Assembly (NCBI GenBank): GCA_015059335.1 | Contig: SVAP01000002.1 | Coordinates: forward strand, 12,170-76,169 | Direction of reading: 5' to 3' | Length of the DNA: 64,000 bases | From: Bacillota bacterium | GTDB lineage: Bacteria > Bacillota_I > Bacilli_A > RF39 > UBA660 | Part shown: piece after piece, positions 1 to 22,623 of the stretch | Layout: each line of letters starts with the position of its first letter | Numbering within the stretch: position 1 is the first letter of the stretch | Program-made: the position numbers and the translations under genes | Notes under the pieces: model-generated | What the model saw: only the letters and a program-made list of their open reading frames with translations | Told to the model about the DNA's origin: nothing | Databases searched by the model: none

Positions 1-548
1 CATTCTCAAAAGCAGAAATAACTGCAGAAGAAGTTGGTTTATCAACACTAACTATTAAAACTCTTGATGGAAGTAATGTTGAAAAAGAAATATTAGTAGA
101 AGTAATTGAACATGACATTCATTCTGATGAATACAATATTGATTTAAATAATAAAAAAGTAAAAAGAATGCATGATAAATTAAAATATAATGATTTATTT
201 ACAAAGATTAATGTTCATGAACAAGTAACTACAAAAGCATTTAAAAATGATGTAGAAATAAATTATGATAATGATATGATTGGTACAGGAACTATTTTAA
301 AAACTTATCTAAATAATAAATTATTCAATAGTTATACAATGATAGTTGATGGGGATTTAAATGGTGATGGTAAAGTCGTAGCAAACGACATATTATTTGT
401 TAAATCTCACATATTGAAAAAACAAACTTTAGAGGGAATATATTTTGAAGCAGGAGATATTGATAAAAATGGTTCAGCAAATGCTACTGATATTCTATAT
501 ATGAAAAGATATATTTTAAGTAAATCTGACAATGTGTGGGGTGATTAA
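1..548 (+). CDS. C-terminal fragment of a secreted Ig-like (Big_2) + dockerin protein; the 5' end lies upstream of the window
   Basis: Frame 3 is open from nt 3 (FSKAEITAEEVGLSTLTIKTLDGSNVEKEILVEV, the end of a Big_2-type domain) into the listed ORF 168..548. The C-terminus has two F-hand repeats, DLNGDGKVVANDILFVKSHIL and DIDKNGSANATDILYMKRYIL. It ends DNVWGD, like the other dockerin proteins of the locus. Confidence 0.8.
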   Translation, partial: FSKAEITAEEVGLSTLTIKTLDGSNVEKEILVEVIEHDIHSDEYNIDLNNKKVKRMHDKLKYNDLFTKINVHEQVTTKAFKNDVEINYDNDMIGTGTILKTYLNNKLFNSYTMIVDGDLNGDGKVVANDILFVKSHILKKQTLEGIYFEAGDIDKNGSANATDILYMKRYILSKSDNVWGD

Positions 549-549
549 G

Positions 550-1455
550 TTGTTTAAAAGAGTATTATGGATCATTCCTTTAGTAATATTGTTATCAACT
601 ACTAATGTGTATGCAGCAACATTTGACATGGATTTGGTAATAGACCAAACAACAGTAACTAAAGGTGAAAATTTAAATGTAAAATTATCTAACAAAAATT
701 TAGATGAAAATGGATTAGCATCAGGTCAATTTTATATTGAGTATGATACAAGTTATTATAATTTCAGTTGTGATGATGTAACATATAAACAAAATGTTAC
801 ATCTTCTGAAATTGATTGTAATGTGTCCAATAATCAAATAATTATTATGTATGTTGATGAAGATGCTGGAGATAGTCCAATAACTAATGGGGAATTTTTA
901 AATTTAAAATTCAACGTTAAAACAGGTGTTACAACAACAACACCAACTACTTTTAAATTAAGTGGAGAAGGATTTTCAAGTGTTAATGGGAGTAAGGTTG
1001 TTAATCTAACATCTAATTCAAATATCACTAAAACTGTTTCAATAGAAAAACAAAAAAATTCAGATATTTATTTAGGAACATTAAGCATTGATGGATATAA
1101 TATAGGATTCGATAAAAATAAATTTGAATATTCTATTGAAGTAGAAAACAATGTATCTAAAATAAATATAAAAGCAATTACTAATACTTCAACATCTACT
1201 GTAGTTGGTAGTGGGGAAAAAGAATTAGTAGTTGGAGATAATAAATTTACATTAACAGTAACTGCTGAAAATGGTTCAAAACAAAACTATGTTATTAATG
1301 TAAAAAGATTAGATGTTGCAAAAGATACAGGAACAATTAAAGAAAATCCACAAACAGGAGTGAATAATAGTATAACAGTTATTGTATTTATACTTATAGC
1401 AGGAGCTGCAACATTATATTTTACAAGAAAGAGAAATTTCTTTCCAAAGATTTAA
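550..1455 (+). CDS. Cell-wall-anchored single-cohesin protein (signal peptide, cohesin-like module, cadherin-like beta-sandwich, NPQTG sortase signal)
   Basis: Signal peptide ends ...STTNVYA. Cohesin-type pattern: GLASGQFYIEYDTSYY...NQIIIMYVDEDAGDSPITNGEFLNLKFNVK. Cadherin-like pattern: LGTLSIDGYNIGFDKNKFEYSIEV...FTLTVTAENGSKQNYVINVKR. C-terminus is NPQTG + hydrophobic helix + RKR. TTG at 550 sits 5 nt after a GGGGTGA SD inside the upstream NVWG codons; GTG 541 and ATG 532 are alternative starts. Confidence 0.75.
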   Translation: MFKRVLWIIPLVILLSTTNVYAATFDMDLVIDQTTVTKGENLNVKLSNKNLDENGLASGQFYIEYDTSYYNFSCDDVTYKQNVTSSEIDCNVSNNQIIIMYVDEDAGDSPITNGEFLNLKFNVKTGVTTTTPTTFKLSGEGFSSVNGSKVVNLTSNSNITKTVSIEKQKNSDIYLGTLSIDGYNIGFDKNKFEYSIEVENNVSKINIKAITNTSTSTVVGSGEKELVVGDNKFTLTVTAENGSKQNYVINVKRLDVAKDTGTIKENPQTGVNNSITVIVFILIAGAATLYFTRKRNFFPKI

Positions 1456-1464
1456 GGAGAATTT

Positions 1465-2550
1465 ATGAAGAAAGTATTTTTAATGATTCTTCCAATATTA
1501 ATGTTATTTATGCCAACAGTTGTAAATGCTAGTACTAATTTTAATACTAGCATTTCTGTTAGTAGTAGTGATATTAAATTGGATAAAGAGTTTAGTATAT
1601 CAATTAATTTATCAAATTTAAGTAGTTCAGGTTTAGCATCTGGACAATATTATATCTCATACGATAAAAGTAAAATGTCGTATTTAGGATATTCAGTAGG
1701 ACAAAACAAACCTGATGCTGATTACAGTGTAAATGATAACAATGGAAATATTGTTGTATTATATGTAGATAATACAGCAGGGGAAAATACATTAAAAAAT
1801 GGTTTATTTGCTACTTTAAAATTTAAAGCAATAAAAGAGGGAACAGGTAGTATTAATTTGTCTGGTGAGGGTTTTGCAACTATTACTGATTCAATTATTG
1901 ATTTATCAACAAATACTGCTAGTAAATCAATTACAATAACAAAAGAAGTTGTTGTTCCGCCGGCACAAGAGGAAAATAAAAATAATAATAATAACAATAA
2001 TACAAACAACAATAATAATTCAAATAATACTACAAATAAAACTGAAAATAAAAAAGAAGAAGTAAAAAATGAAGAATCAAAATTAAGTAATGATGCATTA
2101 TTAAAGAAATTACAAATAGAAGGATTAGAATTAAATTTTAGTAGTGATAAAACTGATTATAAAATATCAGTACCGTATGAAACAACTAAATTAAATATAA
2201 GTTATGAAACATCTCATGATAAGGCAATCGTGGAATTAAATAATAAACCATTACAAGTAGGTAATAATGAAATAACAATCAAAGTAATTGCTGAAGATAA
2301 AACAGAAAAAATATATAAAATAACAGTTACAAGAAATGAAGAAATACCTGTTATAGATTTAGATGATGACGAAAAGAATGATGGAGAAATAGAAGAACAA
2401 GATAATGCTAAATCAAAAGAGAATAATACAACAAAAATTATTGTTTGTTCAATAGTTATAATATTAGTATTTGGACTTGGTGGATATGCATTATACATAA
2501 CCATAAAAAAGAAAAAAGATGAAAAAAATAATATTGAAATTGAAAAATAA
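1465..2550 (+). CDS. Membrane-anchored single-cohesin protein (signal peptide, cohesin-like module, poly-Asn linker, cadherin-like domain, C-terminal TM helix)
   Basis: AAGGAG SD lies 6 nt upstream. Cohesin-type pattern: GLASGQYYISYDKSKM...GNIVVLYVDNTAGENTLKNGLFATLKFKAIK. N-rich linker NKNNNNNNNTNNNNNSNN. Cadherin-like pattern: LLKKLQIEGLELNFSSDKTDYKISV...ITIKVIAEDKTEKIYKITVTR. C-terminal helix IIVCSIVIILVFGLGGYALYI followed by KKKKDEK; no LPXTG-like motif. Confidence 0.7.
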   Translation: MKKVFLMILPILMLFMPTVVNASTNFNTSISVSSSDIKLDKEFSISINLSNLSSSGLASGQYYISYDKSKMSYLGYSVGQNKPDADYSVNDNNGNIVVLYVDNTAGENTLKNGLFATLKFKAIKEGTGSINLSGEGFATITDSIIDLSTNTASKSITITKEVVVPPAQEENKNNNNNNNTNNNNNSNNTTNKTENKKEEVKNEESKLSNDALLKKLQIEGLELNFSSDKTDYKISVPYETTKLNISYETSHDKAIVELNNKPLQVGNNEITIKVIAEDKTEKIYKITVTRNEEIPVIDLDDDEKNDGEIEEQDNAKSKENNTTKIIVCSIVIILVFGLGGYALYITIKKKKDEKNNIEIEK

Positions 2551-4573
2551 AACAACATTTTTAATCTTATCATTCATTTTCATCTTTGCCTTAGTTGGAA
2601 TGTTTTTTTGTAAAAATAATACTAAAACAATTAATGCTAATTATCTTTCTTATTCTATTGAAAATAATAATATTGATGAACCTAAAGAATGTGAGTTTAG
2701 TGAGGAATATAAGGCATGGTTATCACTTTCTGAGGGTGAACAAAATAATATAGAAATGCCTGAAGTATGTGCAGAATATTCAAACGGTGAAATAAACGAT
2801 AATATGACTTTGTTTAATATTGATAGTAAATTACCTTTAAAATATGACTCACGAAATATTGAAGGGAAAAGTTTTATTACAAGTGTTAGAAGTCAAGGAT
2901 TCACTGGATTATGTTGGGCTTTTTCTGCCATTGATGCAATAGAGTCTAATATATTAAAAACAAGTAATCAGAATTTTGATTTATCTCCAACACATATCTC
3001 ATACGCCACATCATATAAAAATTTTATAGATGGTGTAAACATAGAAGGTAATAGTACAAGAATAGTTGGAGATGGTGGAACTCATTTAGACGTTGCATCA
3101 TATTTAACTAAATTAAAAGGACCAATTTTTGAGAGCGATTGGCTAATCAATGATTTTTATAACAAAGAACCTAAAAATGGAAACACAATGTTAAAATCAA
3201 TTTATTTAAATGAAATTAATACAAAAAAAACAATTGCTGATGTTAATAATATAATATGGTATCAAAATGATACTTGCACGAATGATGATTTAAATTATAT
3301 TAAACAAAATATAATGGATCATGGTTCTGTATCCATCTCATATTATAATGCAGATTCTAGTATTGACGGCAGTGATTATATTAATGAAGATTGGTTTGAA
3401 ACAGGAGAATACTACTATTATTATAATGGTACGAAAAATCCCAATCATGCTGTAACATTAGTAGGGTGGGATGACTCTATTTCAATTGATAATTTTTCAT
3501 CAGATAATAGTCCATCAAAAGCCGGCGCTTTCATAGTTAAAAATACTCGTGGTTCACAAATGTTTAATGATGGATATATGTATATATCTTATGAAGATAC
3601 AAATTTATGTAAAAGTGTTGAAATATATAATGATATAGATTATAAAATTGAAGATAATGTTTATTATTATGACCAATTAGGTCATTGGGGAGGAATAGGA
3701 AGTAAAAATTCTAACAATATTGCATGGGCAGCAAATAAATTCAAAAAGAAAACAGCAAATGAAGAAGTATTAAAAGAAGTTACAATTGGTACTAGAGGAG
3801 ATACTGATTATGAAATATATATTTCTTTTAATGATAATTTAAATGATAGGACTTTAATAGGTAAAGGAAATATTGATCATAAAGGATATGGTACTCATAA
3901 GTTTTCTAATGAAATTTTAATTGAAAAAGATTTTTCTATAATTGTAAAATATATTGCAAATTACAGTTCGGATTCATATACTCCTGTAGCAGTACAAGAT
4001 AGTAGGGTAAAAGGATTTGAAAATACAACATTAAGAGCTGGACAAAGTTTCTATTCATTATATGGAAATACTTGGACTGATTTATATGATAAAAGTGATA
4101 CATTTATTCCTTCAATAAAAGCATATACAAATAATAATACATATGATTTAAAATCAGACAAGTATAATTTTGATGACAATTTAATAATTAAAAATATAAA
4201 AGATAAATTATTATTTGATGATTTTATAACTGATTTCACAGTTAATAGTAATATTAAAACTAAAATATTTAATGAAGATAGAGAAATAGATTATACAAAA
4301 CCATTAGGAACAGGGAACAAATTAAAAACATATTCTAATGATGAACTATTAAATGAATATACTTTAATTGTGTCTGGTGATATTAATGGTGATGGACAAG
4401 TAAATGCAAGTGATATTCTATATATGAAAAGACATATTTTAAGTAAAAGTACATTAGAAAATATACTATTTACAGCAGGGGATATTGATGAAAATAATTC
4501 AGTTAATGCTACTGATATTATATATTTAAAAAGATATATACTTGGTAAAACTGATAATGTGTGGGGTAGTTAA
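2519..4573 (+). CDS. Secreted papain-family (C1) cysteine peptidase with C-terminal dockerin
   Basis: N-terminal signal/anchor helix. Catalytic Cys motif SQGFTGLCWAFSAIDAIESN and His motif NHAVTLVGWDD. C-terminal SGDINGDGQVNASDILYMKRHIL ... DIDENNSVNATDIIYLKRYILGKTDNVWGS. Overlaps the upstream gene by 32 nt. Confidence 0.85.
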   Translation: MKKIILKLKNKTTFLILSFIFIFALVGMFFCKNNTKTINANYLSYSIENNNIDEPKECEFSEEYKAWLSLSEGEQNNIEMPEVCAEYSNGEINDNMTLFNIDSKLPLKYDSRNIEGKSFITSVRSQGFTGLCWAFSAIDAIESNILKTSNQNFDLSPTHISYATSYKNFIDGVNIEGNSTRIVGDGGTHLDVASYLTKLKGPIFESDWLINDFYNKEPKNGNTMLKSIYLNEINTKKTIADVNNIIWYQNDTCTNDDLNYIKQNIMDHGSVSISYYNADSSIDGSDYINEDWFETGEYYYYYNGTKNPNHAVTLVGWDDSISIDNFSSDNSPSKAGAFIVKNTRGSQMFNDGYMYISYEDTNLCKSVEIYNDIDYKIEDNVYYYDQLGHWGGIGSKNSNNIAWAANKFKKKTANEEVLKEVTIGTRGDTDYEIYISFNDNLNDRTLIGKGNIDHKGYGTHKFSNEILIEKDFSIIVKYIANYSSDSYTPVAVQDSRVKGFENTTLRAGQSFYSLYGNTWTDLYDKSDTFIPSIKAYTNNNTYDLKSDKYNFDDNLIIKNIKDKLLFDDFITDFTVNSNIKTKIFNEDREIDYTKPLGTGNKLKTYSNDELLNEYTLIVSGDINGDGQVNASDILYMKRHILSKSTLENILFTAGDIDENNSVNATDIIYLKRYILGKTDNVWGS

Positions 4574-4582
4574 GTATGAAAA
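4469..4582 (+). repeat. Near-identical ~114-nt dockerin-end/gene-junction repeat, copy 1
   Basis: tttacagcaggggatattgatgaaaataattcagttaatgctac.gatattatata.ttaaaaagatatat...ggtaaaactgataatgtgtggggtagttaagtatga recurs at 7397..7510 with only a handful of mismatches. A more diverged copy ends at 11717. Confidence 0.85.
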
Positions 4583-7500
4583 AGAAAATATTAAATAAAA
4601 AAATTATTATAATAGGAATATTTATTTTATTAGTGTTTAGTTTAGGCATATTTATAAATAATGCGTTTTTTAAACCAACTAAATTAAATGCATTTATTGC
4701 TGCAAAAATATATAAAAGTCCTGCAAATACTGCGTTTGAAGATGATAATTTTTATAGGTGTGTTGTTGATGCTTATAATAGTGGAAAGGCCAGTAATGAA
4801 CAAGTAGCATATGGACATAGTTTAACTGATGAAGAATTAGAAAGTATTGAAACTTTGTCGTGTGGAAGTAGAACTGATACTATTCATAATATTAATGGTA
4901 TTCACTATTTAACTGGATTGAAAACATTGGTTTTAAATTTTGCTTATTTAGATTCGGATGAACAAAGTGAATTTGTTCTTGATTTAATTGAATTTAAAAA
5001 TTTAAAAACATTATCTTTATATTCTGTTTCTGGAATAACAAAAATAAATATTGGAAATAATGATAGTTTAAAAACAATAAATTTATTTCAATATGGATTA
5101 AATGAAATAAATTTAGGTGATTTACCAAATTTGACATCAATATCAATAGAAGGAGATTTAACTAATGATATCAATGTTACAGGAGCTCCAAAATTAGAGG
5201 TTTTAAAACTTGAAGAAGCGGGTGGTATTCTAACAGAAGAAGGAATATATAATATTGATGTAACAAAAAATCCAGAATTAACTGAATTGGTAGTTGAAGG
5301 AAATAATATATCAACAATTGATGTTACAAATAATTTAAAATTAACTGAATTAATTTTAAATAATAATAATTTATCCGAACTAGATGTAACAAATAATCCG
5401 AATTTATTTAAATTAGATGCAAGGAATAATAATATATCTAGTATAAATTTAACTAATAATTTAGAATTAACACATTTATTATTAGATAATAACACAATAG
5501 AAAAGATTGATTTATCTAATAATAGAAAACTAAATCAGTTATTTATTAGGGATAATAATTTATCTGAAATAAACTTGGAAAATTGTGCAGAACTTACAGA
5601 GGCCTTATTATCAAATAATAAAATAGAATTAATAAAAGTTGCAAACAGTGTTAGTGTAATAGATTTAAGTAATAATAAATTGAATAATGTGGATTTTGAA
5701 AGTAATGATTTTCGTACATTATTAGTGGATAACAATAATTTATCAGAATTAGATATAGAACATATGACTAAATTAGTTTTATTGCAAGCTCGTGATAATA
5801 AAATAAGTACAATAGATTTATCAAGCGCTATTGATTTAGCACATTTAGTTTTAGATAATAATAACATTCAAGAATTAGATTTAGATAATAACATTAATTT
5901 AATAACGTTAGAATTATCTAATAATGATATTAGAGAATTAAATTTAACTCAAAATGTAAATTTGAATTTATTATATTTAAATGGAAATAATAATTTAAAA
6001 AAAGTAATTGTTGATGATATACAAAATATACATGATTTTAAAATTGAAATGACTGATAAAATTATTGGATATAGAAATATAGAAAAAACTATTTCAGTTA
6101 GTGATTATATTGAAAATATTAAAGAAATAGATGAGAGTAAGATAAAAATTTATTTTAATAATAAATTTTTAGAACCACCAATAATCCAATTTGATAATAT
6201 AGGTTTAACACAATTTTCAAGAAATGGTATATATTTTTATAATAACACTAATGAAATGTATGGTAATTTGAATATTAATTATGACTTATATGTACTTGAT
6301 TTAACAAGTGATGTATATACAATTAATAACGATGAAGGTTATATTGATATAGGTGATGAAAGAATCACAAATGATATTATCGAAAATTTAAATGTAAATT
6401 ATGGAGATATTCAGATAAAGAACAATAAATTACAAATTTTATTTGAAGACGAATTAATCAAAGAATTTGACATTGTAACCACTTATGAAGAAAAAATAAA
6501 TATAAACGATTTTGAAATAAGTAATTCAATAAATGATGAAGCAAAATGGTTTAATGGTTATAGAGGAAATATATCATTTAATATTTCATCTGACGATATA
6601 CAAGATTTTTCAAATTTTGACATAAAAGTATTAAAAGATGAAAACGAAATAAATGATTTTCATATTACTAAATCACAAACAAGTGATATATTAAATGTTA
6701 ATATTTCTAGTTTAGTATCAACTAATCCTAATATCTTTGAAACAGGTAACTATGTTATTAACATTTATATTAATGAAAATTTAATAATATTAAAAGAATT
6801 TGAAATTCACGAACCAATTAAGATTACTGATATTCAAATAGAAGATATGATTATAAATTATAGGGATAGCAGTATAAGTATTGATTATGATATTTTACCT
6901 AAAAATGCTACTAATAAAAATTTAACATTTACAATAGATGATACATCAATAGCACAATTAGATATTTATAATAAAATTCATCCACAAACTGTTGGTCAAA
7001 CAAAGTTAACGCTTATAGCACAAGATGGTAGTGATATTGAAAAACAAGTAAATATTTCTATCAATGATTTTGGATTTGCTCAACATACATTTAAAATTGA
7101 TTATAATAATAAAATAATCAGAAAAATAAATGCTAAATTATCATATTCTGATTTTGTTAATAAATTTATAAAACAAGATTTATTGACATTTGGAATTTAT
7201 TCAAATGAAGAAGAAATAAATAATACTGATTATATTAGTACAAATAGTATATTGAAAAGTAACTTTAATGGTGTAAATAATAATTTTACAATGATAGTTG
7301 ATGGGGATTTAAATGGTGATGGATTAGCTAATGCTGCCGATATTATATTTATGAAAAGATATATTTTAGGTAAAAACACCTTAGATGATATTTTGTTTAC
7401 AGCAGGGGATATTGATGAAAATAATTCAGTTAATGCTACCGATATTATATACTTAAAAAGATATATTTTAGGTAAAACTGATAATGTGTGGGGTAGTTAA
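4576..7500 (+). CDS. Secreted leucine-rich-repeat protein with Big_2 Ig-like domain and C-terminal dockerin
   Basis: About 15 consecutive 22-aa LRRs (NNLSELDVTNNPNLFKLDARNNNISSINLTNNLELTHLLLDNN...). Big_2-like segment ITDIQIEDMIINYRDSSISIDYDILPKNATNKNLTFTIDD...GQTKLTLIAQDGSDIEKQVNISI. Dockerin DGDLNGDGLANAADIIFMKRYIL...DIDENNSVNATDIIYLKRYILGKTDNVWGS. The ATG is 2 nt after the upstream stop. Confidence 0.85.
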   Translation: MKKKILNKKIIIIGIFILLVFSLGIFINNAFFKPTKLNAFIAAKIYKSPANTAFEDDNFYRCVVDAYNSGKASNEQVAYGHSLTDEELESIETLSCGSRTDTIHNINGIHYLTGLKTLVLNFAYLDSDEQSEFVLDLIEFKNLKTLSLYSVSGITKINIGNNDSLKTINLFQYGLNEINLGDLPNLTSISIEGDLTNDINVTGAPKLEVLKLEEAGGILTEEGIYNIDVTKNPELTELVVEGNNISTIDVTNNLKLTELILNNNNLSELDVTNNPNLFKLDARNNNISSINLTNNLELTHLLLDNNTIEKIDLSNNRKLNQLFIRDNNLSEINLENCAELTEALLSNNKIELIKVANSVSVIDLSNNKLNNVDFESNDFRTLLVDNNNLSELDIEHMTKLVLLQARDNKISTIDLSSAIDLAHLVLDNNNIQELDLDNNINLITLELSNNDIRELNLTQNVNLNLLYLNGNNNLKKVIVDDIQNIHDFKIEMTDKIIGYRNIEKTISVSDYIENIKEIDESKIKIYFNNKFLEPPIIQFDNIGLTQFSRNGIYFYNNTNEMYGNLNINYDLYVLDLTSDVYTINNDEGYIDIGDERITNDIIENLNVNYGDIQIKNNKLQILFEDELIKEFDIVTTYEEKININDFEISNSINDEAKWFNGYRGNISFNISSDDIQDFSNFDIKVLKDENEINDFHITKSQTSDILNVNISSLVSTNPNIFETGNYVINIYINENLIILKEFEIHEPIKITDIQIEDMIINYRDSSISIDYDILPKNATNKNLTFTIDDTSIAQLDIYNKIHPQTVGQTKLTLIAQDGSDIEKQVNISINDFGFAQHTFKIDYNNKIIRKINAKLSYSDFVNKFIKQDLLTFGIYSNEEEINNTDYISTNSILKSNFNGVNNNFTMIVDGDLNGDGLANAADIIFMKRYILGKNTLDDILFTAGDIDENNSVNATDIIYLKRYILGKTDNVWGS
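5026..6001 (+). repeat. Tandem ~66-bp coding periodicity (the LRR array within 4576..7500)
   Basis: Repeated aat-aat-tta-tc.-gaa-tta-gat-type units translate to LxxLxLxxNxLxxIDLxxN repeats. The repeat is coding. Confidence 0.8.
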
Positions 7501-7510
7501 GTATGAGAAA
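7397..7510 (+). repeat. Near-identical ~114-nt dockerin-end/gene-junction repeat, copy 2
   Basis: Same sequence as 4469..4582, including stop codon, 2-nt spacer and the next ATG (taagtatga). Confidence 0.85.
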
Positions 7511-10500
7511 AAGTATTATAGTATTAATAATTTCTATACTTCTTCTAATTCCACAATATAATGTAAGTGCATTAAATAATAATGAATTAGAAGAAACATA
7601 TAGAACTGAAGAAAATAAAGTTAAGGGTGAACCTTATTTAAATCCAATGTGGGTTGAGTGGAATAACTTACCAGATGAGGAAAAAACAAAATGGGAAGTT
7701 ATTCCCCAAAAACTTATTGTTGATTATGTATATGAACATGAACCGACAACATATGATACATTAATTAATAAATATAACTTATTAGTACCTAAATCTGAAA
7801 CTTATCCAAGTACATATAACTTAAAAGATGAAGGTTATGTTAGTCCAATTAAAAATCAAAGCACATTAGGACTATGTTGGGATTTTGCAACTATTGCTGC
7901 AATAGAGTCTAATGCTCTTAAAACCTTGGGTAAAAGTTTAATATTTTCTGAAAGACAAATAGACTATGCTCTATCTAACCCGGCAACAAGTATTACCGAA
8001 GGATATAATCCTTATGGTGATAGTAATAGAACATTAGGTGATGGTGGAAATTTTAGTGATGTTACAACTTTATTTATGGATGGAATATCACCCCAACTTA
8101 CATCAGTTTGGGGTAATTATTCTACAAGTTCTACGAAACAAAAATTATCCAAAGTAATTAATAACAACAATGTAGAATATCAGGTTACTAATACTGTTCA
8201 ATTTCCATATATAAATATGGGAACTGCTTCCAAAGAAGAAAAGAATTCATATATTAAAATGATCAAAAAACATATTATGAATTATGGTGGTGTTTATATT
8301 TCAACAATTACACCAGATTCTAGAGGTGGAAGTTGCTATAATAGTCAATATAATATGTCTTATAAATATGAGGGATGTACTACTTCAGATACAGATTCTT
8401 GGCATGCTATGTTAATAATTGGATGGAATGATACATATGGTCCAGATTATAATGGTGATGGGGTAGGAGATGGTGCGTGGATACTTAAAAACTCATGGGG
8501 AAGTCAAAATCAATATCCATACGTTTCATATTATTCGTTAGATTCAGAATATAATGGTATTATTTCTATTGAAGAAAAAAATTGGGATAATAATTATAAT
8601 GCTTATGATTTACATACAACAAATATTTTAAGTTCAACTTCATCAGAAACTATAAAAACATTTAAATATTATAAAGATGAAAAAAACAAAGAAATATTAA
8701 ATAAAATAAGTTTTTTTTCTTATGCTGATAAAGAATATAGCATTTATCTTAATCAAACAGATAATATTGAGGATAATATTTTAATTGGACAAATTACTAC
8801 CGACAGAACAGGTATTTATTCTATTGATACACAAGATATAGAATTAATTAATAATTCTTTTACTGTAACAATAAAAGGGCAATCTATATTTGGTAAATTA
8901 AATGTTTATACTAGTGATTATGATGAAAGTACTGAAAAAAAAGTGTCAACATATATAAAAAATGATTTTGTTGATTTTAACAAAACAACATCTTCTAGTA
9001 TTGCTTCTTTTGAATTAGCAACATTTACTAAAAATATTGAAACGGGTACTGAAATAAAATATAAAATATATAAAGAAAATACTGATATAACAAATCTTTT
9101 TACAATTCCCAAAACATATATAATTAATGATGGTTCTTTAACTACTATTGAATATGATAAATCAATAATAGAATATGGTAATTATAAAGTAGAAACATAT
9201 ATAAATAATATTAAAGAGAATACGTACAATTTTACAGTTGGAGCTGAATTAATAAAAGATATATATGTTCCTAGCAAAATAGTTTTATCGTTGGGAGAGA
9301 CACGTTCTCTACCCATAAAAATAAAAGATAGTTCAGCATATGATAAAAGTATTACATATACATTTCTTGATAATGGAATAGTATCAATAGATGAGAGTGG
9401 CAAATTGACTGCAGAAGCATTGGGTAAAACAACATTACACCTATCTACAAATGATTATTCTGATATAGAAAGAAATATAGAAATTGAAGTAAGACAATTA
9501 AATGGTGTAGGAACAATTAATAATCCTTACTTAATTAATGATAAATATGAATTGTATTTGATAAAAAATAATTTGTCGGCGTCTTATAAATTAACCAATA
9601 ATATAACATTTAATGAAGACGATTTTGAACCCAATGGAGATTTCTACAATGCAGGATATAATTGGTATTCTATAAATAATTTTACTGGCATTTTTGATGG
9701 TAATAACAAGAATATTAAAGGGTTAAGGGTATATATAGGTCTATCTGAAATGAATATGGGGTTGTTTGGTAAAATAGAAGGTGCGACTATTAAAAATATT
9801 ACATTTGAAAATTGTTCATCACATGCAACGAGTGGAAATTTTGGGATTGTTGCAGGAATGTCAATTAATTCTACTTTTGAGAATATAACTGTATTAAATT
9901 CAAATATAACAGTTATGAATAAAAGTAATGCAGGAGCAATAGTTGGTTCTGATGAGTCTAGTACATTTAAAAATATATCATCATTAAAAAATAGTATTGG
10001 TGGTATTTCTGGTAATTTAAACAAGAAAATTGGAGGAATAGTTGGCGTTTCAAAAAATACACTATTTAATAACATTAGTAATACCAGTACAGTTTATGGT
10101 GGCTATTTAAGTAATGTTGGTGGGATTGTCGGAGAAAGCAATAATGCTACAATTATAAACTCAACAAATTCTGGTAATATTAAAATATCATATGCATCAA
10201 ATGTTCCAGACACATCAACAACTGGTGGAATTGTCGGCACCTCATTGGATTCTACTATTATTTCTTCAAATAATGATGGTGCAATAAATGGTAGATTTAC
10301 AATGGGTGGTATAGTTGGAAAATCTAACAATACTTACATAAAAGATGTTTATAATAATGGTGCAATTTTACCTATTTCAGATAAAGCAAATTATGGTAAG
10401 CATTCTAGACAATTTTACGTTGGTGCTATTATTGGATATAGTGACTATAGTTTGTTAAGTAATGTGTTTTCTCTTGTAACATATGATAAAGAAACTATAA

Positions 10501-11717
10501 AGTCAAATGATTATTATTGTTCAAATACTGGATGCACCATTCACTTAGGTGGTATTATAGGATATGGATATTATACACAAGTTAATAATTACTATAGTTC
10601 TTACCAAGATAACGCTGATAATTCAGAAATAGGATATAATAGTTCATCATCAAATACTTTAAATAATAAAATTAGTTATGATTATATTAAAGGACAAAAT
10701 TTCGGAACAACTAGTGAAAATATATGTACTTTGGGTTACAATTGCAATGATATATGGGAGAAAAAAGATGATATAGACCATATAACTTTAAAAAAAGAAT
10801 TTATTGATTTTGACATAATTATAAATGGTAAAAAAGGGGATACAATATCAAATATATTTTATCCATATGATAATTTAAGTAGTAATTTAAAAATGAGTAG
10901 TTATAATACAAATTATCTATCAATTAATCAAGATGAAATTACTTTAAAAGATTGTGGAACTACAACATTTGATATTGGTTCTAAAATTGGCTCAGATTTT
11001 ACAAAAAAAATAACAATTAATATTATTGATAAAACAATTGAAGATATTGTTTTAGAAAAATCAGAAATAATAATTGGTTTAAATGAAAATATAAAAGTTA
11101 AATATTATATAACACCAGAGGATGCATCAATAAAACAATTATATTGGGAAACTACTGATAATGATATTGCAACAGTTGACCAAAATGGTAATATTACAGG
11201 GGTGTCTGAGGGAACAACAATGATAAGGGTTAAATCACTTGATGGAAGTAATATTGAAAAAACGATTAAAGTAACAGTAGTAGATTATGACATAAAAACT
11301 GATAAATATAATATTGATGAAAATCTTATAATAAATAAAATAAAAGACAAATTATTATTTAGTGATTTTATAACTGATTTCACAGTTAACAGTAATATAA
11401 TTACTAAAGTATTCAATAATGATACTGAAATTGATTATACAAAATCATTAGGAACAGGATATAAGTTAAAAACATATTCTAATGCTGAGTTAATAAATGA
11501 ATATACTTTAATTGTATCTGGTGATTTAGATGGTAATGGTAGTATTAATGCTGCTGATATTATGAAAATGAAGTTACATATATTGGGTAAAAGTACATTA
11601 AATGATGTTTTGTTTAAAGCAGGAGATGTTAATGATAGTAATTCAGTTAATGCTACTGATATTATATACTTGAAAAGATATATACTTGGTAAATCTGATA
11701 ATGTGTGGAGTAATTAA
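7503..11717 (+). CDS. Large secreted multidomain C1 cysteine peptidase (C1 peptidase, Big_2 domains, GLUG/beta-helix-like GGIVG repeat region, dockerin)
   Basis: Signal peptide ...QYNVSA. Cys motif NQSTLGLCWDFATIAAIESN and His motif WHAMLIIGWND followed by NSWG. Two Big_2-like segments (GKTTLHLSTNDYSDIERNIEIEV; GTTMIRVKSLDGSNIEKTIKVTV). Repeated GGIVG/GGIIG units around aa 750-1020. C-terminal SGDLDGNGSINAADIMKMKLHIL...DVNDSNSVNATDIIYLKRYILGKSDNVWSN. Confidence 0.85.
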   Translation: MRKSIIVLIISILLLIPQYNVSALNNNELEETYRTEENKVKGEPYLNPMWVEWNNLPDEEKTKWEVIPQKLIVDYVYEHEPTTYDTLINKYNLLVPKSETYPSTYNLKDEGYVSPIKNQSTLGLCWDFATIAAIESNALKTLGKSLIFSERQIDYALSNPATSITEGYNPYGDSNRTLGDGGNFSDVTTLFMDGISPQLTSVWGNYSTSSTKQKLSKVINNNNVEYQVTNTVQFPYINMGTASKEEKNSYIKMIKKHIMNYGGVYISTITPDSRGGSCYNSQYNMSYKYEGCTTSDTDSWHAMLIIGWNDTYGPDYNGDGVGDGAWILKNSWGSQNQYPYVSYYSLDSEYNGIISIEEKNWDNNYNAYDLHTTNILSSTSSETIKTFKYYKDEKNKEILNKISFFSYADKEYSIYLNQTDNIEDNILIGQITTDRTGIYSIDTQDIELINNSFTVTIKGQSIFGKLNVYTSDYDESTEKKVSTYIKNDFVDFNKTTSSSIASFELATFTKNIETGTEIKYKIYKENTDITNLFTIPKTYIINDGSLTTIEYDKSIIEYGNYKVETYINNIKENTYNFTVGAELIKDIYVPSKIVLSLGETRSLPIKIKDSSAYDKSITYTFLDNGIVSIDESGKLTAEALGKTTLHLSTNDYSDIERNIEIEVRQLNGVGTINNPYLINDKYELYLIKNNLSASYKLTNNITFNEDDFEPNGDFYNAGYNWYSINNFTGIFDGNNKNIKGLRVYIGLSEMNMGLFGKIEGATIKNITFENCSSHATSGNFGIVAGMSINSTFENITVLNSNITVMNKSNAGAIVGSDESSTFKNISSLKNSIGGISGNLNKKIGGIVGVSKNTLFNNISNTSTVYGGYLSNVGGIVGESNNATIINSTNSGNIKISYASNVPDTSTTGGIVGTSLDSTIISSNNDGAINGRFTMGGIVGKSNNTYIKDVYNNGAILPISDKANYGKHSRQFYVGAIIGYSDYSLLSNVFSLVTYDKETIKSNDYYCSNTGCTIHLGGIIGYGYYTQVNNYYSSYQDNADNSEIGYNSSSSNTLNNKISYDYIKGQNFGTTSENICTLGYNCNDIWEKKDDIDHITLKKEFIDFDIIINGKKGDTISNIFYPYDNLSSNLKMSSYNTNYLSINQDEITLKDCGTTTFDIGSKIGSDFTKKITINIIDKTIEDIVLEKSEIIIGLNENIKVKYYITPEDASIKQLYWETTDNDIATVDQNGNITGVSEGTTMIRVKSLDGSNIEKTIKVTVVDYDIKTDKYNIDENLIINKIKDKLLFSDFITDFTVNSNIITKVFNNDTEIDYTKSLGTGYKLKTYSNAELINEYTLIVSGDLDGNGSINAADIMKMKLHILGKSTLNDVLFKAGDVNDSNSVNATDIIYLKRYILGKSDNVWSN

Positions 11718-11723
11718 AATAGA

Positions 11724-11748
11724 AGAGGAATGATTGTTTCATTCCTCT
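11724..11748. terminator. Hairpin terminator closing the cohesin-dockerin operon; probably bidirectional
   Basis: agaggaatga-ttgtt-tcattcctct, a 10-bp perfect stem. A short T run follows on the + strand and a T-rich run on the - strand. Confidence 0.7.
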
Positions 11749-11950
11749 TTATAAAAAAAGCAACCCAATCACTTATAGGGTTGCCATGCGTGTTAACCGT
11801 CAAATCGTACAATACTACAGTACAAAACAATTAACATATTAATAGTACCATGATAAAATATGATAGTCAATAATTTACATGCATTTTGTCCGGAATATAC
11901 TCGGACTTTACATTCTCACTATAAAATTATTTTTTCTCCATTTATATTAC

Positions 11951-12262
11951 TTAGTTTTTTCTACTTATTCTGTAATTGTAATCAATAATTACCGCTTTAA
12001 TTATCTTATCAAAATCTTTGATGCTGTTATAATACGACTTTATATATTCGTTATTTTTATATGGATATAATTTTAAAAATGATTTATTTTTGTTAATAAT
12101 TAAATCAACCATATAGTTATTGTTTTTATATTTTACATAAAAATCTGTATAAGGCGATATCTCAAAATGAAATCCCATTTTTAAATATTTTTTTCTTTTT
12201 TTAAATATTTTAATCCATAAATTTGATACTAAATTTAATCTATAATTTGTACATAACTTCAT
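11951..12262 (-). CDS. Hypothetical protein (103 aa, K/N/Y-rich)
   Basis: ORF only. No recognisable motif and no clear SD. Retained because it fills an otherwise empty 600-nt gap. Confidence 0.3.
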   Translation of the reverse strand: MKLCTNYRLNLVSNLWIKIFKKRKKYLKMGFHFEISPYTDFYVKYKNNNYMVDLIINKNKSFLKLYPYKNNEYIKSYYNSIKDFDKIIKAVIIDYNYRISRKN

Positions 12263-12389
12263 TTTATATATTTTTCATTAAATAATAAGTGCCTAGTGTA
12301 GGGGAAATCTACAATTATAATATTTTACTTATCTTTTTTTGATATTATTTCTATGTACTATGAAATCAATTAGAAGTAGGTGATTTAAA

Positions 12390-12608
12390 TTGAGAACGAT
12401 TTCCCTTAATAAATGTTCTGAAGCCGAGTTTATAAAATTTATTAGAGAATCATTAGGTCTTACTCAAAAACAATTTGGCGAATTGATTGGTAAATCACCT
12501 AGAACTGTTGCTGACTACGAATCAGGTAAAACAATGTATAATGCTGCAACTCTAAAAAAACTATGCAACATTAAAAAAATAAAAATAGATTTCGTTGCCT
12601 CTAAATAA
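12390..12608 (+). CDS. XRE-family helix-turn-helix transcriptional regulator (72 aa)
   Basis: HTH_3 pattern LGLTQKQFGELIGKSPRTVADYESGK. TTG start is preceded by agtaggtga. Paralogous to 14109..14324 (KFIR..TQ..FG..I..S..T..DYE..K..Y). Confidence 0.75.
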   Translation: MRTISLNKCSEAEFIKFIRESLGLTQKQFGELIGKSPRTVADYESGKTMYNAATLKKLCNIKKIKIDFVASK

Positions 12609-12614
12609 GTACTC

Positions 12615-12983
12615 CTATTTTAAAAGGGTTTTACGAATTTGAACTTCCAATTCATTTAAGAGTGAAATATAATTTGAAGTTTTAAAATTCTTAACCTTTT
12701 TTTTATACTCAAACCAACATTTTAAAAAATTAGTGTATTCATCAAATTTAATATTATCAAATTTATATTTTTTATAGATTACATCAATTAATATTGAGTA
12801 ATTATTATTAATTAGATTATTCTTTATCATTTTTATTTTAAATTGTATTTTATTATTATTTATGGTTGTAGAATGTAATATATAGAATAGAGTTATATTT
12901 TTAGAATTTGATTTTTTTATTAATGATATTTTATTTAATTCACTTATAAAATCAAAAGTTTTTTGTATCCCTTGTTTTAACAT
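12615..12983 (-). CDS. Hypothetical protein (122 aa)
   Basis: Overlaps the upstream minus-strand gene by 7 nt. An AGGGGA SD lies 6-7 nt before the ATG. No recognisable motif. Confidence 0.55.
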   Translation of the reverse strand: MLKQGIQKTFDFISELNKISLIKKSNSKNITLFYILHSTTINNNKIQFKIKMIKNNLINNNYSILIDVIYKKYKFDNIKFDEYTNFLKCWFEYKKKVKNFKTSNYISLLNELEVQIRKTLLK

Positions 12984-13501
12984 AAAATTCCCCTATACAT
13001 TGCATCATAAATATATTCACTCATACTTTGTTCATTAACTGTTTCTTTTCTAAAAGTATCCTTAATTGTTTCAAATATAGCTATATATGTATTAAGCATT
13101 GCACCGCTTATATATCTATAATCAACAAACACATCTGTCATTCTACTAGAATATAGATCAGATGTAATTTTGTGAAATATAAATAATTTCATTAAGTTAT
13201 TTTTATTAATTAATGGTATATATTCTTTATACATTAATTTACAAAATTTATCAGTATTTACATATTTGTTTAAACTATACATAAGGGTATTTGCTAATAT
13301 TAAATCTATTCTTAATAATGTATTACTATCTTCATACTCAATATAATTATTCTTATTTAAATCAAAATTTTTTATTTTTAAAAATTTATTTGTTTTTTTT
13401 ACAAATTCGATTATTTTTTCAATTATATCCTCATCAAATTCTTCATTTATATAAAATAAATCAATTATTCTTTTTCTTAATAAATCTTCAATAAACTCCA
13501 T
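12977..13501 (-). CDS. Hypothetical protein (174 aa, predicted helical)
   Basis: GGAAAGGA SD precedes the ATG on the minus strand. Composition is plausibly globular. No recognisable motif. Confidence 0.6.
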   Translation of the reverse strand: MEFIEDLLRKRIIDLFYINEEFDEDIIEKIIEFVKKTNKFLKIKNFDLNKNNYIEYEDSNTLLRIDLILANTLMYSLNKYVNTDKFCKLMYKEYIPLINKNNLMKLFIFHKITSDLYSSRMTDVFVDYRYISGAMLNTYIAIFETIKDTFRKETVNEQSMSEYIYDAMYRGILC

Positions 13502-13649
13502 GATAATATTTTCCTTTCCATATTAAGTATATAAATGAAATATCATTTCACCTCCTATGTAGTAACAATTGCATCACATAGCAGTATTTCTCGGTTCTGA
13601 ATATTTTAAAAATATTGTAGCATATTAATGTAATGGCGGAGTTGATGGA

Positions 13650-13919
13650 ATGGAAAGTTTATCAAAAATTGTTGGTGCAAATATTAAATATTACCGATTT
13701 CAGAAAAAATTATCACAAGAGACTCTTTCTGAATCACTAGATTTATCAATGAAGTATATATCAGATGTTGAAAGTGGTAAATATAATTTATCATTATCAA
13801 GTTTAGAAAAATTAGGGAAATTATTAGATGTTGCACCTTATAAGTTTTTAATGCCAAATCCTAAAGCAAAAAATCTTCCATCAAGAGTTGATTTATATTG
13901 GAAATCAAAAACAAACTAA
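13650..13919 (+). CDS. XRE-family helix-turn-helix transcriptional regulator (89 aa)
   Basis: LSQETLSESLDLSMKYISDVESGKYNLSLSSLEKLGKLLDV is the canonical HTH_3 pattern. Divergent from the 13501 minus-strand operon. Confidence 0.8.
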   Translation: MESLSKIVGANIKYYRFQKKLSQETLSESLDLSMKYISDVESGKYNLSLSSLEKLGKLLDVAPYKFLMPNPKAKNLPSRVDLYWKSKTN

Positions 13920-22527: not shown

Positions 22528-22623
22528 AGTATTATCAAAATATGGAAATTAAATCATTGATTAAATAATATGTTTATGTTATCCTAGTATTATAAGGATA
22601 AGATGATAATGGAGTGGGTTGTA

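What the first reader, a model, noticed from the sequence alone, without database searches (positions are those of the whole stretch)
1..11717. Compact cohesin-dockerin surface-display locus whose cargo is proteases and an LRR protein, not carbohydrate-active enzymes
Seen in sequence: six co-directional genes are packed with 2-10 nt gaps or overlaps. Two of them encode signal peptide + a ~140-aa module with the cohesin pattern + a cadherin-like beta-sandwich + a cell anchor. The cohesin patterns are GLASGQFYIEYD...IIIMYVDEDAGDSPITNGEFLNLKFNVK and GLASGQYYISYD...IVVLYVDNTAGENTLKNGLFATLKFKAIK. One anchor is an NPQTG sortase signal; the other is a TM helix with a Lys-rich tail. Four genes (one cut by the window edge) end in a duplicated F-hand dockerin (DxNxDGxxxxxD twice). 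Cargo modules are two papain-family C1 peptidases, a ~15-repeat LRR protein, Big_2 Ig domains and a GGIVG-rich GLUG/beta-helix region. I see nothing resembling a GH, PL, CE or CBM module. Established knowledge: cohesin-dockerin pairs assemble cellulosomes, and scattered pairs exist in non-cellulolytic bacteria where their role is mostly unknown. Inference: this is a minimal, self-contained two-anchor system that displays proteases and an adhesin-like LRR protein on the cell surface.
Basis: partly seen in the sequence, partly recalled or inferred. Interest (0 to 1): 0.8.

Follow-up and report, generated by a model that had tools for sequence, protein, structure and literature searches.

The report
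Non-cellulosomal cohesin-dockerin surface-display operon
An uncultured low-GC gut bacterium carries a compact operon that most likely uses the cellulosome's plug-and-socket modules (dockerin and cohesin) to hang an adhesin-like protein and cysteine proteases, rather than plant-fibre enzymes, on its cell surface; this is a tidy, testable variant of a kind of system that is already known.

Summary
Pfam, PDB sequence searches and AlphaFold/Foldseek confirm two anchored cohesin proteins and four dockerin proteins in window 1-11717. No CAZyme module is present.

The interpretation needs three corrections.
1. The locus is cut by the window edge. The truncated first gene is a 1018-aa adaptor with a third cohesin, a different internal dockerin and a C-terminal dockerin. 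A second cargo/anchor pair lies further upstream.
2. In related loci the conserved unit is adaptor, sortase-type anchor, membrane anchor and an internalin-J-like LRR protein. The two Cwp84-like C1 proteases are additions in this strain.
3. No sortase gene lies in the window, so the system is not fully self-contained.

Best explanation: a non-cellulosomal type-I-like cohesin-dockerin display system in an uncultured Bacilli MAG from ruminant gut. Which dockerin binds which cohesin is inferred, not shown.

Dockerin-borne peptidases and LRR proteins, sortase-anchored single cohesins and cohesin+dockerin adaptors are all published for Ruminococcus. I rate it a new variant of a known kind, of moderate interest.

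The parts
1..548 (+). g1, 3' end of a 1018-aa adaptor ('scaffoldin-like') gene. The window holds the last Ig-like module, the ~70-aa pre-dockerin X module (about 126-350) and the type-A dockerin (about 351-520). The rest lies upstream of the window (L001 6961-9469): signal peptide, cohesin, internal type-B dockerin and Big_2 modules.
   Evidence: Dockerin_1 7.7e-14. Full gene seen on contigs L001/L011. Cohesin 1.1e-9 when the N-terminus is scanned alone. BLASTP to the g3 cohesin 3e-14. F-hand pairs at residues 242/276 and 955/989.
532..1455 (+). g2, a 307-aa anchor. Signal peptide, cohesin (about 631-960), Cadherin-like module (about 1085-1308), then a cell-wall sorting signal: NPQTG (1345-1359), a hydrophobic stretch and a TRKRNFFPKI tail.
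   Evidence: Cohesin 7.5e-10 and Cadherin-like 8.6e-10. Orthologues in L007 and L014 keep ENKNTG + TM + KKxFFPKM.
1465..2550 (+). g3, a 361-aa anchor. Signal peptide, cohesin (about 1555-1938), Asn-rich linker, Cadherin-like module (about 2104-2334), TM helix (about 2437-2505) and a Lys-rich cytoplasmic tail.
   Evidence: Cohesin 7.7e-13 and Cadherin-like 1.1e-11. AF2 pLDDT 91 with nine strands. Foldseek top hits are type I cohesins 5NRM, 5NRK and 2VN6. Cohesin profile against PDB: 2VN5 at 3.6e-8.
2519..4573 (+). g4, a 684-aa cargo. N-terminal signal/TM segment, papain-family C1 peptidase (about 2831-3613), Cwp84-type lectin-like domain (about 3659-4129), X module (about 4151-4363) and type-A dockerin (about 4376-4543).
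   Evidence: Peptidase_C1 2.9e-14, Lectin_like 3.3e-19 and Dockerin_1 2.1e-14. Best PDB match is C. difficile Cwp84 (4CI7) at 4.7e-17 over residues 103-525. Gln/Cys/His/Asn motifs are present. The dockerin fold matches 2CCL_B.
4576..7500 (+). g5, a 974-aa cargo. Signal/TM segment, about 15 LRRs of 21 residues (about 4993-6015), Ig-like region, X module and type-A dockerin (about 7303-7470). This is the cargo conserved in related loci.
   Evidence: Internalin J (3BZ5) at 1.2e-24. Repeat count. Dockerin_1 1.4e-10. Full-length homologues follow g3 in L010 (2e-135), L018 and L014.
7503..11717 (+). g6, a 1404-aa cargo. Signal peptide, C1 peptidase (about 7806-8522), Ig-like modules, a GGIVG-rich GLUG/M26_N-like region (about 9420-10802), Big_2 (about 11088-11246), X module and type-A dockerin (about 11520-11687).
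   Evidence: Peptidase_C1 2.8e-9, Big_2 1.2e-14 and Dockerin_1 1.4e-9. Cwp84 at 1.7e-8 over residues 75-416. Catalytic motifs present. Glug 0.0028 and M26_N 1.9e-4, both below cut-off.
11723..11749 (.). An 11-bp-stem hairpin 5 nt after the g6 stop codon. It is the probable end of the operon. On the + strand it is followed by an A-run, not a T-run.
   Evidence: Terminator-like scan; sequence read.

Best explanation
This is a non-cellulosomal, type-I-like cohesin-dockerin surface-display system of an uncultured, very low-GC (~25%) Bacilli-class gut bacterium.

Anchors. Two single-cohesin proteins sit on the envelope. g2 is probably linked covalently to peptidoglycan by a sortase through its NPQTG sorting signal. 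g3 is held in the membrane by a C-terminal TM helix. In each, a Cadherin-like beta-sandwich and a linker hold the cohesin away from the membrane.

Cargo. Secreted proteins that end in a conserved 'X module + dockerin' dyad (type A) plug into these cohesins in a Ca2+-dependent way. They are an internalin-J-like LRR protein (g5) and two Cwp84-like papain-family proteases with intact catalytic residues (g4, g6).

Adaptor. g1 carries the same C-terminal dockerin, so it can occupy an anchor. Its long Ig-like stalk then holds out its own N-terminal cohesin, either for further cargo or for another g1, which would give chains. It also holds out an internal dockerin of a different sequence type, whose partner is unknown.

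Net effect. The cell surface is decorated with an adhesin and proteases. The dockerin replaces the CWB2 repeats of Cwp84 and the LPXTG anchor of internalins.

Shown: module identities and folds, anchor signals, intact catalytic motifs, operon packing, conservation of the adaptor/anchor/anchor/LRR unit, and variability of the other cargo.

Inferred: that these dockerins bind these cohesins, which one binds which, Ca2+ dependence, sortase linkage, and the substrates of the proteases and the LRR protein.
For: - Module identity: Pfam; PDB sequence; structure.
- The dockerins resemble the C. thermocellum type I dockerin. A[ST] sits at repeat positions 10-11 and K-R at positions 17-18.
- The second dockerin repeat, NATDI[IL]Y[LM]KRYIL, is invariant in all four window genes. 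It is nearly so in loci whose cohesins are only 40-47% identical.
- The three cohesins share GLASGQ[FY]YI, Y.D, NG, L.F and SGEGF.
- Gene order adaptor / sortase-type cohesin / TM cohesin recurs in four further loci: L010, L018, L007 and L014.
- A g5-like LRR cargo follows that unit in L010, L018 and L014.
- The 12 closest X-dockerin families in 1.84 billion representatives are C1 peptidases (5), an LRR protein, adaptors, and Ig-like or unknown proteins. None is a GH.
- Among the top 60 hits, 8 carry Peptidase_C1, 5 LRR_5 and 4 LRR_8. Only one carries a GH.
- Published precedent. The sortase-anchored Sca2 cohesin of R. bromii binds the dockerins of a peptidase and of an LRR protein. [quoted passage not shown]
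Against: - No binding data and no complex model. The tools return no interface information.
- No sortase gene in the window. In orthologues the sorting motif loses its proline (ENKNTG), so covalent wall linkage is less certain than for a canonical LPXTG.
- The rest of the genome could not be scanned. Dockerin-bearing CAZymes elsewhere cannot be excluded.
- The three cohesins are only 28-35% identical to each other, so they may differ in specificity. The partner of the internal dockerin is unknown.
- There are no expression data.
Confidence: 0.72

Rival explanations
1. The locus is one arm of a conventional polysaccharide-degrading complex (cellulosome or amylosome). The CAZyme subunits carry the same dockerin and are encoded elsewhere in the genome. 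The proteases and the LRR protein are minor accessory subunits, as in R. flavefaciens and R. bromii.
For: In R. flavefaciens FD-1, 16 peptidase modules and 28 LRR modules sit on dockerin proteins alongside many GHs. In R. bromii the same cohesins bind amylases, a peptidase and an LRR protein. Only 64 kb plus about 10 kb of this genome was examined.
Against: None of the 12 closest type-A X-dockerin families carries a CAZyme, and only 1 of the top 60 does (GH123). No protein has more than one cohesin. There is no CBM. The rest of the window holds no dockerin and no GH.
Confidence: 0.1
2. The proteases are housekeeping surface-maturation enzymes, like Cwp84, which cleaves the S-layer precursor SlpA in C. 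difficile (from my own knowledge, not checked here). They would process the cell's own displayed proteins, such as the adaptor, the LRR protein or other surface-layer proteins, rather than attack external or host proteins. This rival concerns the cargo's role and is compatible with the display mechanism.
For: The best solved homologue of g4 and g6 is Cwp84, including its lectin-like domain in g4. The proteases are co-transcribed with the surface proteins they might process.
Against: There are three paralogous proteases: g4, g6 and the upstream 1577-aa protein. Two of them are fused to adhesin-type modules (GLUG/M26_N-like, Big_2, Flg_new), which are typical of substrate- or host-binding proteins. 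The closest relatives keep the adaptor, anchors and LRR protein without any protease. The proteases are therefore not required for assembly.
Confidence: 0.2
3. The unit is an accessory adhesion or aggregation cassette on a mobile or hypervariable island. Its main role would be cell-cell or cell-substrate attachment, for example for colonisation or mating-pair formation. The cohesin-dockerin pairs might even bridge neighbouring cells.
For: - Two genomes that are 92% identical across the core share synteny only from the HTH gene to the end of g3. Both flanks differ.
- A serine recombinase abuts the cargo in L010.
- ParB_N, small HTH genes, a sigma-70 region 4 protein and a T2SSE ATPase flank the locus in L014.
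- A CHAP-domain protein lies upstream in this strain.
- The conserved cargo is an adhesin-like LRR protein.
Against: GC content and skew do not differ from the surrounding chromosome. tblastn of g3 against 72,556 plasmids and 50,697 phages matches only the Cadherin-like part. No integrase or repeat boundary was found next to the locus in the window. In L007 the locus lies among housekeeping genes (comEC, ezrA, ileS).
Confidence: 0.12
4. The locus-encoded dockerins and cohesins are not partners of one another. The dockerins would dock onto scaffoldins of other species in the gut community, and the cohesins would scavenge foreign dockerin proteins.
For: Opportunistic scavenging has been suggested for P. 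guangzhouensis scaffoldins (PMC11557425). The X-dockerin dyad is widespread: 9481 representatives at E <= 0.001.
Against: Cohesin and dockerin genes are tightly linked and translationally coupled, and this linkage is conserved across divergent loci. Two-gene 'dockerin cargo + Cohesin-Cadherin anchor' pairs recur elsewhere.
Confidence: 0.05

Closest known systems
Ruminococcus bromii amylosome components: Sca2 (sortase-anchored single cohesin) and Amy4 (cohesin + dockerin). PMC4611034.
   Same: A single-cohesin protein carries a C-terminal sortase signal. An adaptor-like protein carries both a cohesin and a dockerin. Dockerin-bearing peptidase, cysteine protease and LRR proteins bind the anchor cohesin experimentally.
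   Different: In R. bromii the defining cargo is GH13 amylases with starch CBMs, and the genes are scattered. The organism is a Clostridia (Oscillospiraceae). Here no CAZyme is present and all parts sit in one operon. The anchors carry a Cadherin-like module, there is a second membrane-anchored cohesin, and the host is a Bacilli-class MAG.
Ruminococcus flavefaciens cellulosome: ScaE sortase anchor, adaptor scaffoldins, X-dockerin dyads, dockerin-borne peptidases and LRR proteins. PMC2930009, PMC3573020.
   Same: Sortase anchoring, adaptors, an X module in front of the dockerin, and many non-CAZyme dockerin proteins (16 peptidase and 28 LRR modules).
   Different: R. flavefaciens has multi-cohesin scaffoldins, hundreds of dockerins, mostly CAZyme cargo and type III cohesins. 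Here the cohesins are closest to type I and there is never more than one per protein.
'Scaffoldin-containing' non-cellulolytic microbes, e.g. Lachnoclostridium sp. MSJ-17 and Limihaloglobus sulfuriphilus (PMC11557425), and the minimal cohesin-dockerin pair of Cellulosilyticum lentocellum (PMC13487519).
   Same: Few cohesins, some with C-terminal TM helices. Dockerins are fused to non-cellulolytic domains, including peptidase-like ones. The systems are small.
   Different: Those were found by genome-wide census and are not organised as one operon. None is described with Cwp84-like or internalin-like cargo, Cadherin-like anchors, or adaptors with one cohesin and several dockerins.
Clostridioides difficile Cwp84 (PDB 4CI7, 4D59).
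   Same: A C1 papain-family protease followed by the PF18560 lectin-like domain, located on the cell surface.
   Different: Cwp84 is held on the wall by CWB2 repeats (my own knowledge). g4 and g6 end in an X-dockerin instead. Sequence similarity is distant (E 5e-17 and 2e-8).
Listeria monocytogenes internalin J (PDB 3BZ5).
   Same: A run of 21-residue LRRs in a surface-exposed protein of a Gram-positive bacterium.
   Different: InlJ is an LPXTG sortase substrate (my own knowledge). g5 has no sorting signal and ends in an X-dockerin. A host ligand for g5 is purely speculative.

Membership tests
Cohesin-dockerin system (general) | Cohesin module: PF00963, nine-stranded jelly-roll | tested here: met
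   Pfam Cohesin above cut-off in g2, g3 and g1. AF2 pLDDT 91. Foldseek top 37 hits are all cohesins, TM up to 0.80.
Cohesin-dockerin system (general) | Dockerin module with a duplicated Ca2+-binding F-hand | tested here: met
   Dockerin_1 in g1, g4, g5 and g6. Two DxNxDGxxxxxD loops in each. The model superposes on 1OHZ_B/2CCL_B at rmsd 0.9 A.
Cohesin-dockerin system (general) | Specific, Ca2+-dependent binding of the dockerin to the cohesin | not testable with these tools
   No binding assay is possible and structure prediction returns no interface read-out. The pairing rests on linkage and conservation only.
Cellulosome sensu stricto | Primary scaffoldin with several cohesins | tested here: not met
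   Every cohesin protein here and in the related loci has exactly one cohesin.
Cellulosome sensu stricto | Dockerin-borne plant-cell-wall CAZymes (GH/CE/PL) and a cellulose-binding CBM | tested here: not met
   No such Pfam family in the six proteins or in the upstream pair. Among related X-dockerin proteins, 0 of the 12 closest and 1 of the top 60 carry a GH. The whole genome was not scanned.
Sortase substrate (cell-wall sorting signal) | LPXTG-like motif, then a hydrophobic stretch, then a positively charged tail at the C-terminus | tested here: met
   g2 ends ENPQTG-VNNSITVIVFILIAGAATLYF-TRKRNFFPKI. Orthologues have ENKNTG with the same layout. The motif is non-canonical and resembles class B sortase or C. 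difficile-type motifs (my own knowledge).
Sortase substrate (cell-wall sorting signal) | A cognate sortase encoded in the genome | tested here: inconclusive
   No T[LIV]xTC signature in any frame of the window, L001-L010. The rest of the genome was not available.
Cwp84-like C1 peptidase | Papain catalytic residues Gln, Cys, His and Asn | tested here: met
   g4: QGFTGLCWAF, HAVTLVGW, IVKNTRG. g6: QSTLGLCWDF, HAMLIIGW, ILKNSWG.
Cwp84-like C1 peptidase | Lectin-like domain PF18560 after the protease | tested here: met
   g4 at 3.3e-19. Not detected in g6.
Cwp84-like C1 peptidase | CWB2 cell-wall-binding repeats | tested here: not met
   No CWB2 hit. The C-terminus is X module + dockerin.
Internalin family | LRR domain of 21-22-residue repeats | tested here: met
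   InlJ at 1.2e-24. Repeat spacing is 21 residues.
Internalin family | LPXTG, GW or WxL surface anchor | tested here: not met
   g5 ends in a dockerin and has no sorting signal.

The most novel reading that the evidence does not exclude
The locus would be the prototype of a distinct, modular 'adhesin/protease display platform' of wall-bearing uncultured gut Bacilli.
- Inverted scaffoldins, with one cohesin and one to several orthogonal dockerins on an Ig stalk, would build chains or branched stalks on two kinds of anchor.
- They would present host- or prey-directed effectors (Cwp84-like proteases, InlJ-like adhesin), functionally replacing CWB2 and LPXTG anchoring.
- Cargo genes would be exchanged between strains by recombination at the conserved X-dockerin 3' ends.
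Probability: 0.25. Interest if true: 0.65.

Novelty: new variant of a known kind. Interest (0 to 1): 0.45.

Why it matters
What the many cohesin-dockerin pairs outside cellulolytic bacteria are for is, to my knowledge, still largely open.

This operon puts two anchors, an adaptor and three cargo proteins side by side. None of them acts on carbohydrates. A handful of recombinant modules would therefore be enough to test binding specificities, chain formation by the adaptor, and the idea that dockerins can replace CWB2 or LPXTG anchoring for protease and adhesin display.

It also extends the system to an uncultured Bacilli lineage of ruminant guts, with more distant relatives of the locus in human-gut samples. 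The cargo resembles colonisation factors of pathogens. The small orthogonal cohesin-dockerin sets could be useful for designer surface display.

Tried and rejected
1. The search for homologous proteins with the 181-aa g1 fragment returned nothing, so one search was lost. The full-length g1 query worked.
2. Two scans of metagenome contigs, with the X-dockerin alignment and with the cohesin alignment, confirmed no locus. The genome-contig scan gave only one species representative, Bacilli bacterium RGIG3080. A broad synteny survey therefore rests on six loci obtained through the look-up of encoding contigs.
3. Is the N-terminal module of the upstream 498-aa anchor a cohesin? hhalign gives 81% probability, E 1.2e-5, but the alignment includes the signal peptide. 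There is no Pfam or PDB sequence hit. Left undecided. The structure could not be predicted because the protein is outside the permitted set.
4. Plasmid or phage origin: tblastn of g3 found only Cadherin-like matches. Not supported.
5. Promoter scan: 150 promoter-like sites found against 147 expected, so it is uninformative at 25% GC.
6. Complex prediction to pair cohesins with dockerins was not attempted. Structure prediction takes one chain and reports no contacts.
7. A Pfam tally of all 131 aligned X-dockerin hits exceeded the residue limit. It was repeated with the top 60.
8. A first Pfam call on the GLUG region used the wrong frame and was repeated.


Full report
**1. What is in the sequence**

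Window 1-11717 holds six + strand genes. Junctions are a 17-nt overlap, a 9-nt gap, a 32-nt overlap and two 2-nt gaps.

The 25 nt before the g5 start and before the g6 start are identical: ctgataatgtgtggggtagttaagt. The last dockerin codons (DNVWGS*) therefore supply a G-rich, Shine-Dalgarno-like stretch for the next gene. This fits translational coupling.

An 11-bp-stem hairpin follows the g6 stop codon.

The window is about 25% G+C throughout, with no compositional break at the locus. It is chromosomal: it carries tRNAs, 6S RNA, pnp, mutS, frr and lysS.

**2. Module identities**

Pfam results:

| Gene | Hits |
|---|---|
| g1 | Dockerin_1 7.7e-14 |
| g2 | Cohesin 7.5e-10; Cadherin-like 8.6e-10 |
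| g3 | Cohesin 7.7e-13; Cadherin-like 1.1e-11 |
| g4 | Peptidase_C1 2.9e-14; Lectin_like PF18560 3.3e-19; Dockerin_1 2.1e-14 |
| g5 | Dockerin_1 1.4e-10; LRR families below cut-off |
| g6 | Peptidase_C1 2.8e-9; Big_2 1.2e-14; Dockerin_1 1.4e-9 |

No GH, PL, CE or CBM family was hit.

A profile of the cohesins matches type I cohesins in the PDB (2VN5 at 3.6e-8).

An AlphaFold2 model of the g3 cohesin has pLDDT 91 and nine strands. Its Foldseek hits are type I cohesins, TM 0.76-0.80.

The g4 X-dockerin model has pLDDT 83.6. Its dockerin half superposes on the C. thermocellum Xyn10B dockerin at rmsd 0.9 A and 41% identity. The ~70-residue beta module in front of it has no solved relative.

g4 and g6 are closest to C. 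difficile Cwp84, at 4.7e-17 and 1.7e-8. Both keep the papain Gln, Cys, His and Asn motifs.

The g5 LRR region matches Listeria internalin J at 1.2e-24, with a 21-residue period.

The GGIVG-rich part of g6 gives only sub-threshold Glug and Peptidase_M26_N hits.

**3.

The exact g2 protein occurs on 23 metagenome contigs. These contigs extend upstream of the window.

The gene cut by the window edge is a 1018-aa protein, annotated as a hypothetical protein of a MAG, locus tag E7166_03100. Its parts, in order:
- signal peptide
- a cohesin of the same family as g2 and g3 (Pfam 1.1e-9 when scanned alone; BLASTP 3e-14; shared GLASGQ[FY]YI, NG, L.F and SGEGF motifs)
- an internal dockerin of a clearly different sequence type
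- Big_2 modules
- the C-terminal X-dockerin

It is an adaptor with one cohesin and two dockerins.

A divergently transcribed HTH_3 gene precedes it.

Further upstream lies a second pair:
- A 1577-aa C1 peptidase, paralogous to g6. It carries a GLUG-like region, four Flg_new repeats and a third dockerin type whose two repeats share the same helix sequence (SLADLSKFYNYYQGN twice).
- A 498-aa protein with a signal peptide, an unassigned N-terminal beta-rich module, a Pro/Thr linker, a Cadherin-like module and a TM anchor.

Whether that N-terminal module is a divergent cohesin is undecided.

**4. Comparative picture**

The source is an uncultured MAG labelled 'Firmicutes bacterium'.

Among 185,579 species representatives, only one carries this cohesin subtype: 'Bacilli bacterium RGIG3080', from goat rectum.

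That genome is 92% identical in DNA from the HTH gene to the end of g3. It differs on both sides. Upstream it lacks the second pair. Downstream it has a single 1103-aa cargo followed by a serine recombinase.

Other loci:

| Locus | Content |
|---|---|
| L018 | adaptor / sortase-type cohesin / TM cohesin, then a 1101-aa LRR cargo |
| L014 | HTH, adaptor with two internal dockerins, two anchors, then an 865-aa cargo |
| L007-L009 (L008 from a Hadza sample) | the three core genes, no adjacent cargo |
| L019 | TM-type cohesin followed by a 1248-aa gene |

The cargo genes of L010 and L014 are full-length homologues of g5.

The conserved unit is therefore adaptor + two anchors + LRR protein. The proteases g4 and g6 are additions in this strain.

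C1 peptidases are still the commonest catalytic cargo on this dockerin type. A profile of the four X-dockerin dyads was searched against 1.84 billion representatives. It found 12 families at E < 1e-30. Five of these are Peptidase_C1, mostly with Lectin_like. Two are adaptors with up to five dockerin stretches. None is a GH. Among the top 60 hits, 8 carry Peptidase_C1, 5 LRR_5, 4 LRR_8 and 1 a GH123.

More distant 'Cohesin + Cadherin-like + TM' anchors are abundant in gut metagenomes. In the one such locus examined (L016), the anchor directly follows a dockerin cargo gene.

**5. Mechanism**

The best-supported reading is a surface-display system.

- g2 has a tripartite sorting signal: ENPQTG, a hydrophobic stretch and a basic tail. 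Orthologues have ENKNTG. It is probably linked to the wall by a sortase.
- g3 is membrane-anchored.
- Both present a type-I-like cohesin on a Cadherin-like spacer.
- Type-A dockerins resemble the C. thermocellum type I dockerin, with A[ST] at repeat positions 10-11 and KR at positions 17-18.
- The second repeat of the type-A dockerin is invariant in the window and nearly so in distant loci. I infer that this helix makes the main contact with the cohesin.
- The adaptor can dock through its own type-A dockerin. It then offers a distal cohesin, either for cargo or for another adaptor, which would give chains. This parallels R. bromii Amy4, whose cohesin binds its own dockerin.
- The partner of the internal dockerin is unknown.

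All pairings are inference. Nothing here measures binding.

**6. Relation to what is known**

- Dockerin-borne peptidases and LRR proteins are documented in R. flavefaciens FD-1: 16 peptidase and 28 LRR modules.
- In R. bromii the sortase-anchored Sca2 cohesin binds peptidase and LRR dockerins.
- Non-cellulolytic 'scaffoldin-containing' bacteria and minimal cohesin-dockerin pairs have been described.
- In a rumen metagenome survey, 21% of the non-carbohydrate functions found on dockerin proteins related to protein catabolism.

The locus fails two defining features of a cellulosome: a multi-cohesin scaffoldin and CAZyme cargo. It meets the module-level features of a cohesin-dockerin system.

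What differs from published cases:
- complete operon organisation with no CAZyme
- Cwp84-like and InlJ-like cargo
- Cadherin-like spacers in both anchors
- adaptors with one cohesin and one to several dockerins
- cargo content that varies by strain
- a Bacilli-class host

A full-text search for dockerin, cohesin and cadherin-like together returned five papers. Judging by their titles and abstracts (I did not read them), none describes such anchors.

**7. Verdict**

It is a new variant of a known kind.

Interest is moderate (0.45). It would not astonish a specialist in cellulosomes. It is, however, one of the tidiest candidates for testing experimentally what non-cellulosomal cohesin-dockerin systems do.

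Noticed in passing
Upstream of the window: L011 1997-8237 (same contig, about 3-7.5 kb before window position 1): A second cargo/anchor pair. The cargo is a 1577-aa C1 peptidase with a GLUG-like region, four Flg_new repeats and a dockerin whose two repeats share the same helix sequence (SLADLSKFYNYYQGN twice). The anchor is a 498-aa protein with a signal peptide, an unassigned N-terminal module, a Pro/Thr linker, a Cadherin-like module and a TM helix. A 253-aa TM protein follows. The pair is absent from the close relative RGIG3080.
   Followed up: partly
window 4551-4578 and 7478-7505: An identical 25-nt junction, ctgataatgtgtggggtagttaagt + ATG, precedes g5 and g6. The 3' X-dockerin coding segments form a four-copy direct repeat (65-80% identity to the reference copy; copies at 327-586, 4352-4611, 7279-7538 and 11496-11755). 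They could act as recombination sites for cargo exchange.
   Followed up: partly
window 28132-30370: Three adjacent + strand genes. A 205-aa protein with a weak camelysin/TasA-like hit (Peptidase_M73, E 0.035). A SipW-like type I signal peptidase (Peptidase_S26, 5e-7). A 387-aa Flg_new-repeat protein. Together they could be a tapA-sipW-tasA-like surface-fibre cluster.
   Followed up: no
window 31233-34500: Two tandem, slightly overlapping large serine recombinases (Resolvase + Recombinase + Zn_ribbon_recom). They may mark an integrated element. A serine recombinase also abuts the cohesin-dockerin locus in the relative (L010 14866-16656).
   Followed up: no
window 11951-14000: The only stretch of the window with reversed GC skew, at about 21% G+C. 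It has three minus-strand ORFs (103, 122 and 174 aa); the 174-aa one, the only one scanned, has no Pfam hit. An HTH_3 gene follows (13650-13919), then a multi-pass membrane protein with a C-terminal receiver domain (14388-16181).
   Followed up: no
window 22603-26393: Two adjacent ORFs of 224 and 1039 aa with no Pfam family at E <= 0.001.
   Followed up: no
L016 5565-9653 (ENA ERZ28508970, 90-kb contig): A distantly related anchor family: about 549 aa, Cohesin + two Cadherin-like modules + TM. Many near-identical clusters appear in the search, one with 495 member sequences. In this locus the anchor sits directly after an 806-aa dockerin protein with T6SS_VgrG3-like_C, RicinB and Flg_new modules. 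This suggests that two-gene dockerin-cargo/cohesin-anchor pairs are widespread in gut Firmicutes.
   Followed up: partly
L014 225-16047 (ENA ERZ15610113): A related locus whose adaptor has two internal dockerins. It is flanked by ParB_N, several small HTH genes, a sigma-70 region 4 protein, a PXO2_28_C-like protein, DUF5411 and a T2SSE ATPase. This context hints at a mobile or conjugative element.
   Followed up: no
window 126-350, 4151-4363, 7078-7300, 11295-11517: The ~70-aa module in front of each dockerin is a small beta domain (pLDDT 74-84) with no Pfam or PDB match. Many of the 9481 profile hits cover both this module and the dockerin, so the X-dockerin dyad is a widespread unit with no Pfam family.
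   Followed up: partly
window 61437-61617: 6S RNA (Rfam RF00013, 82.9 bits). Five tRNA genes lie at 49184-54727.
   Followed up: no
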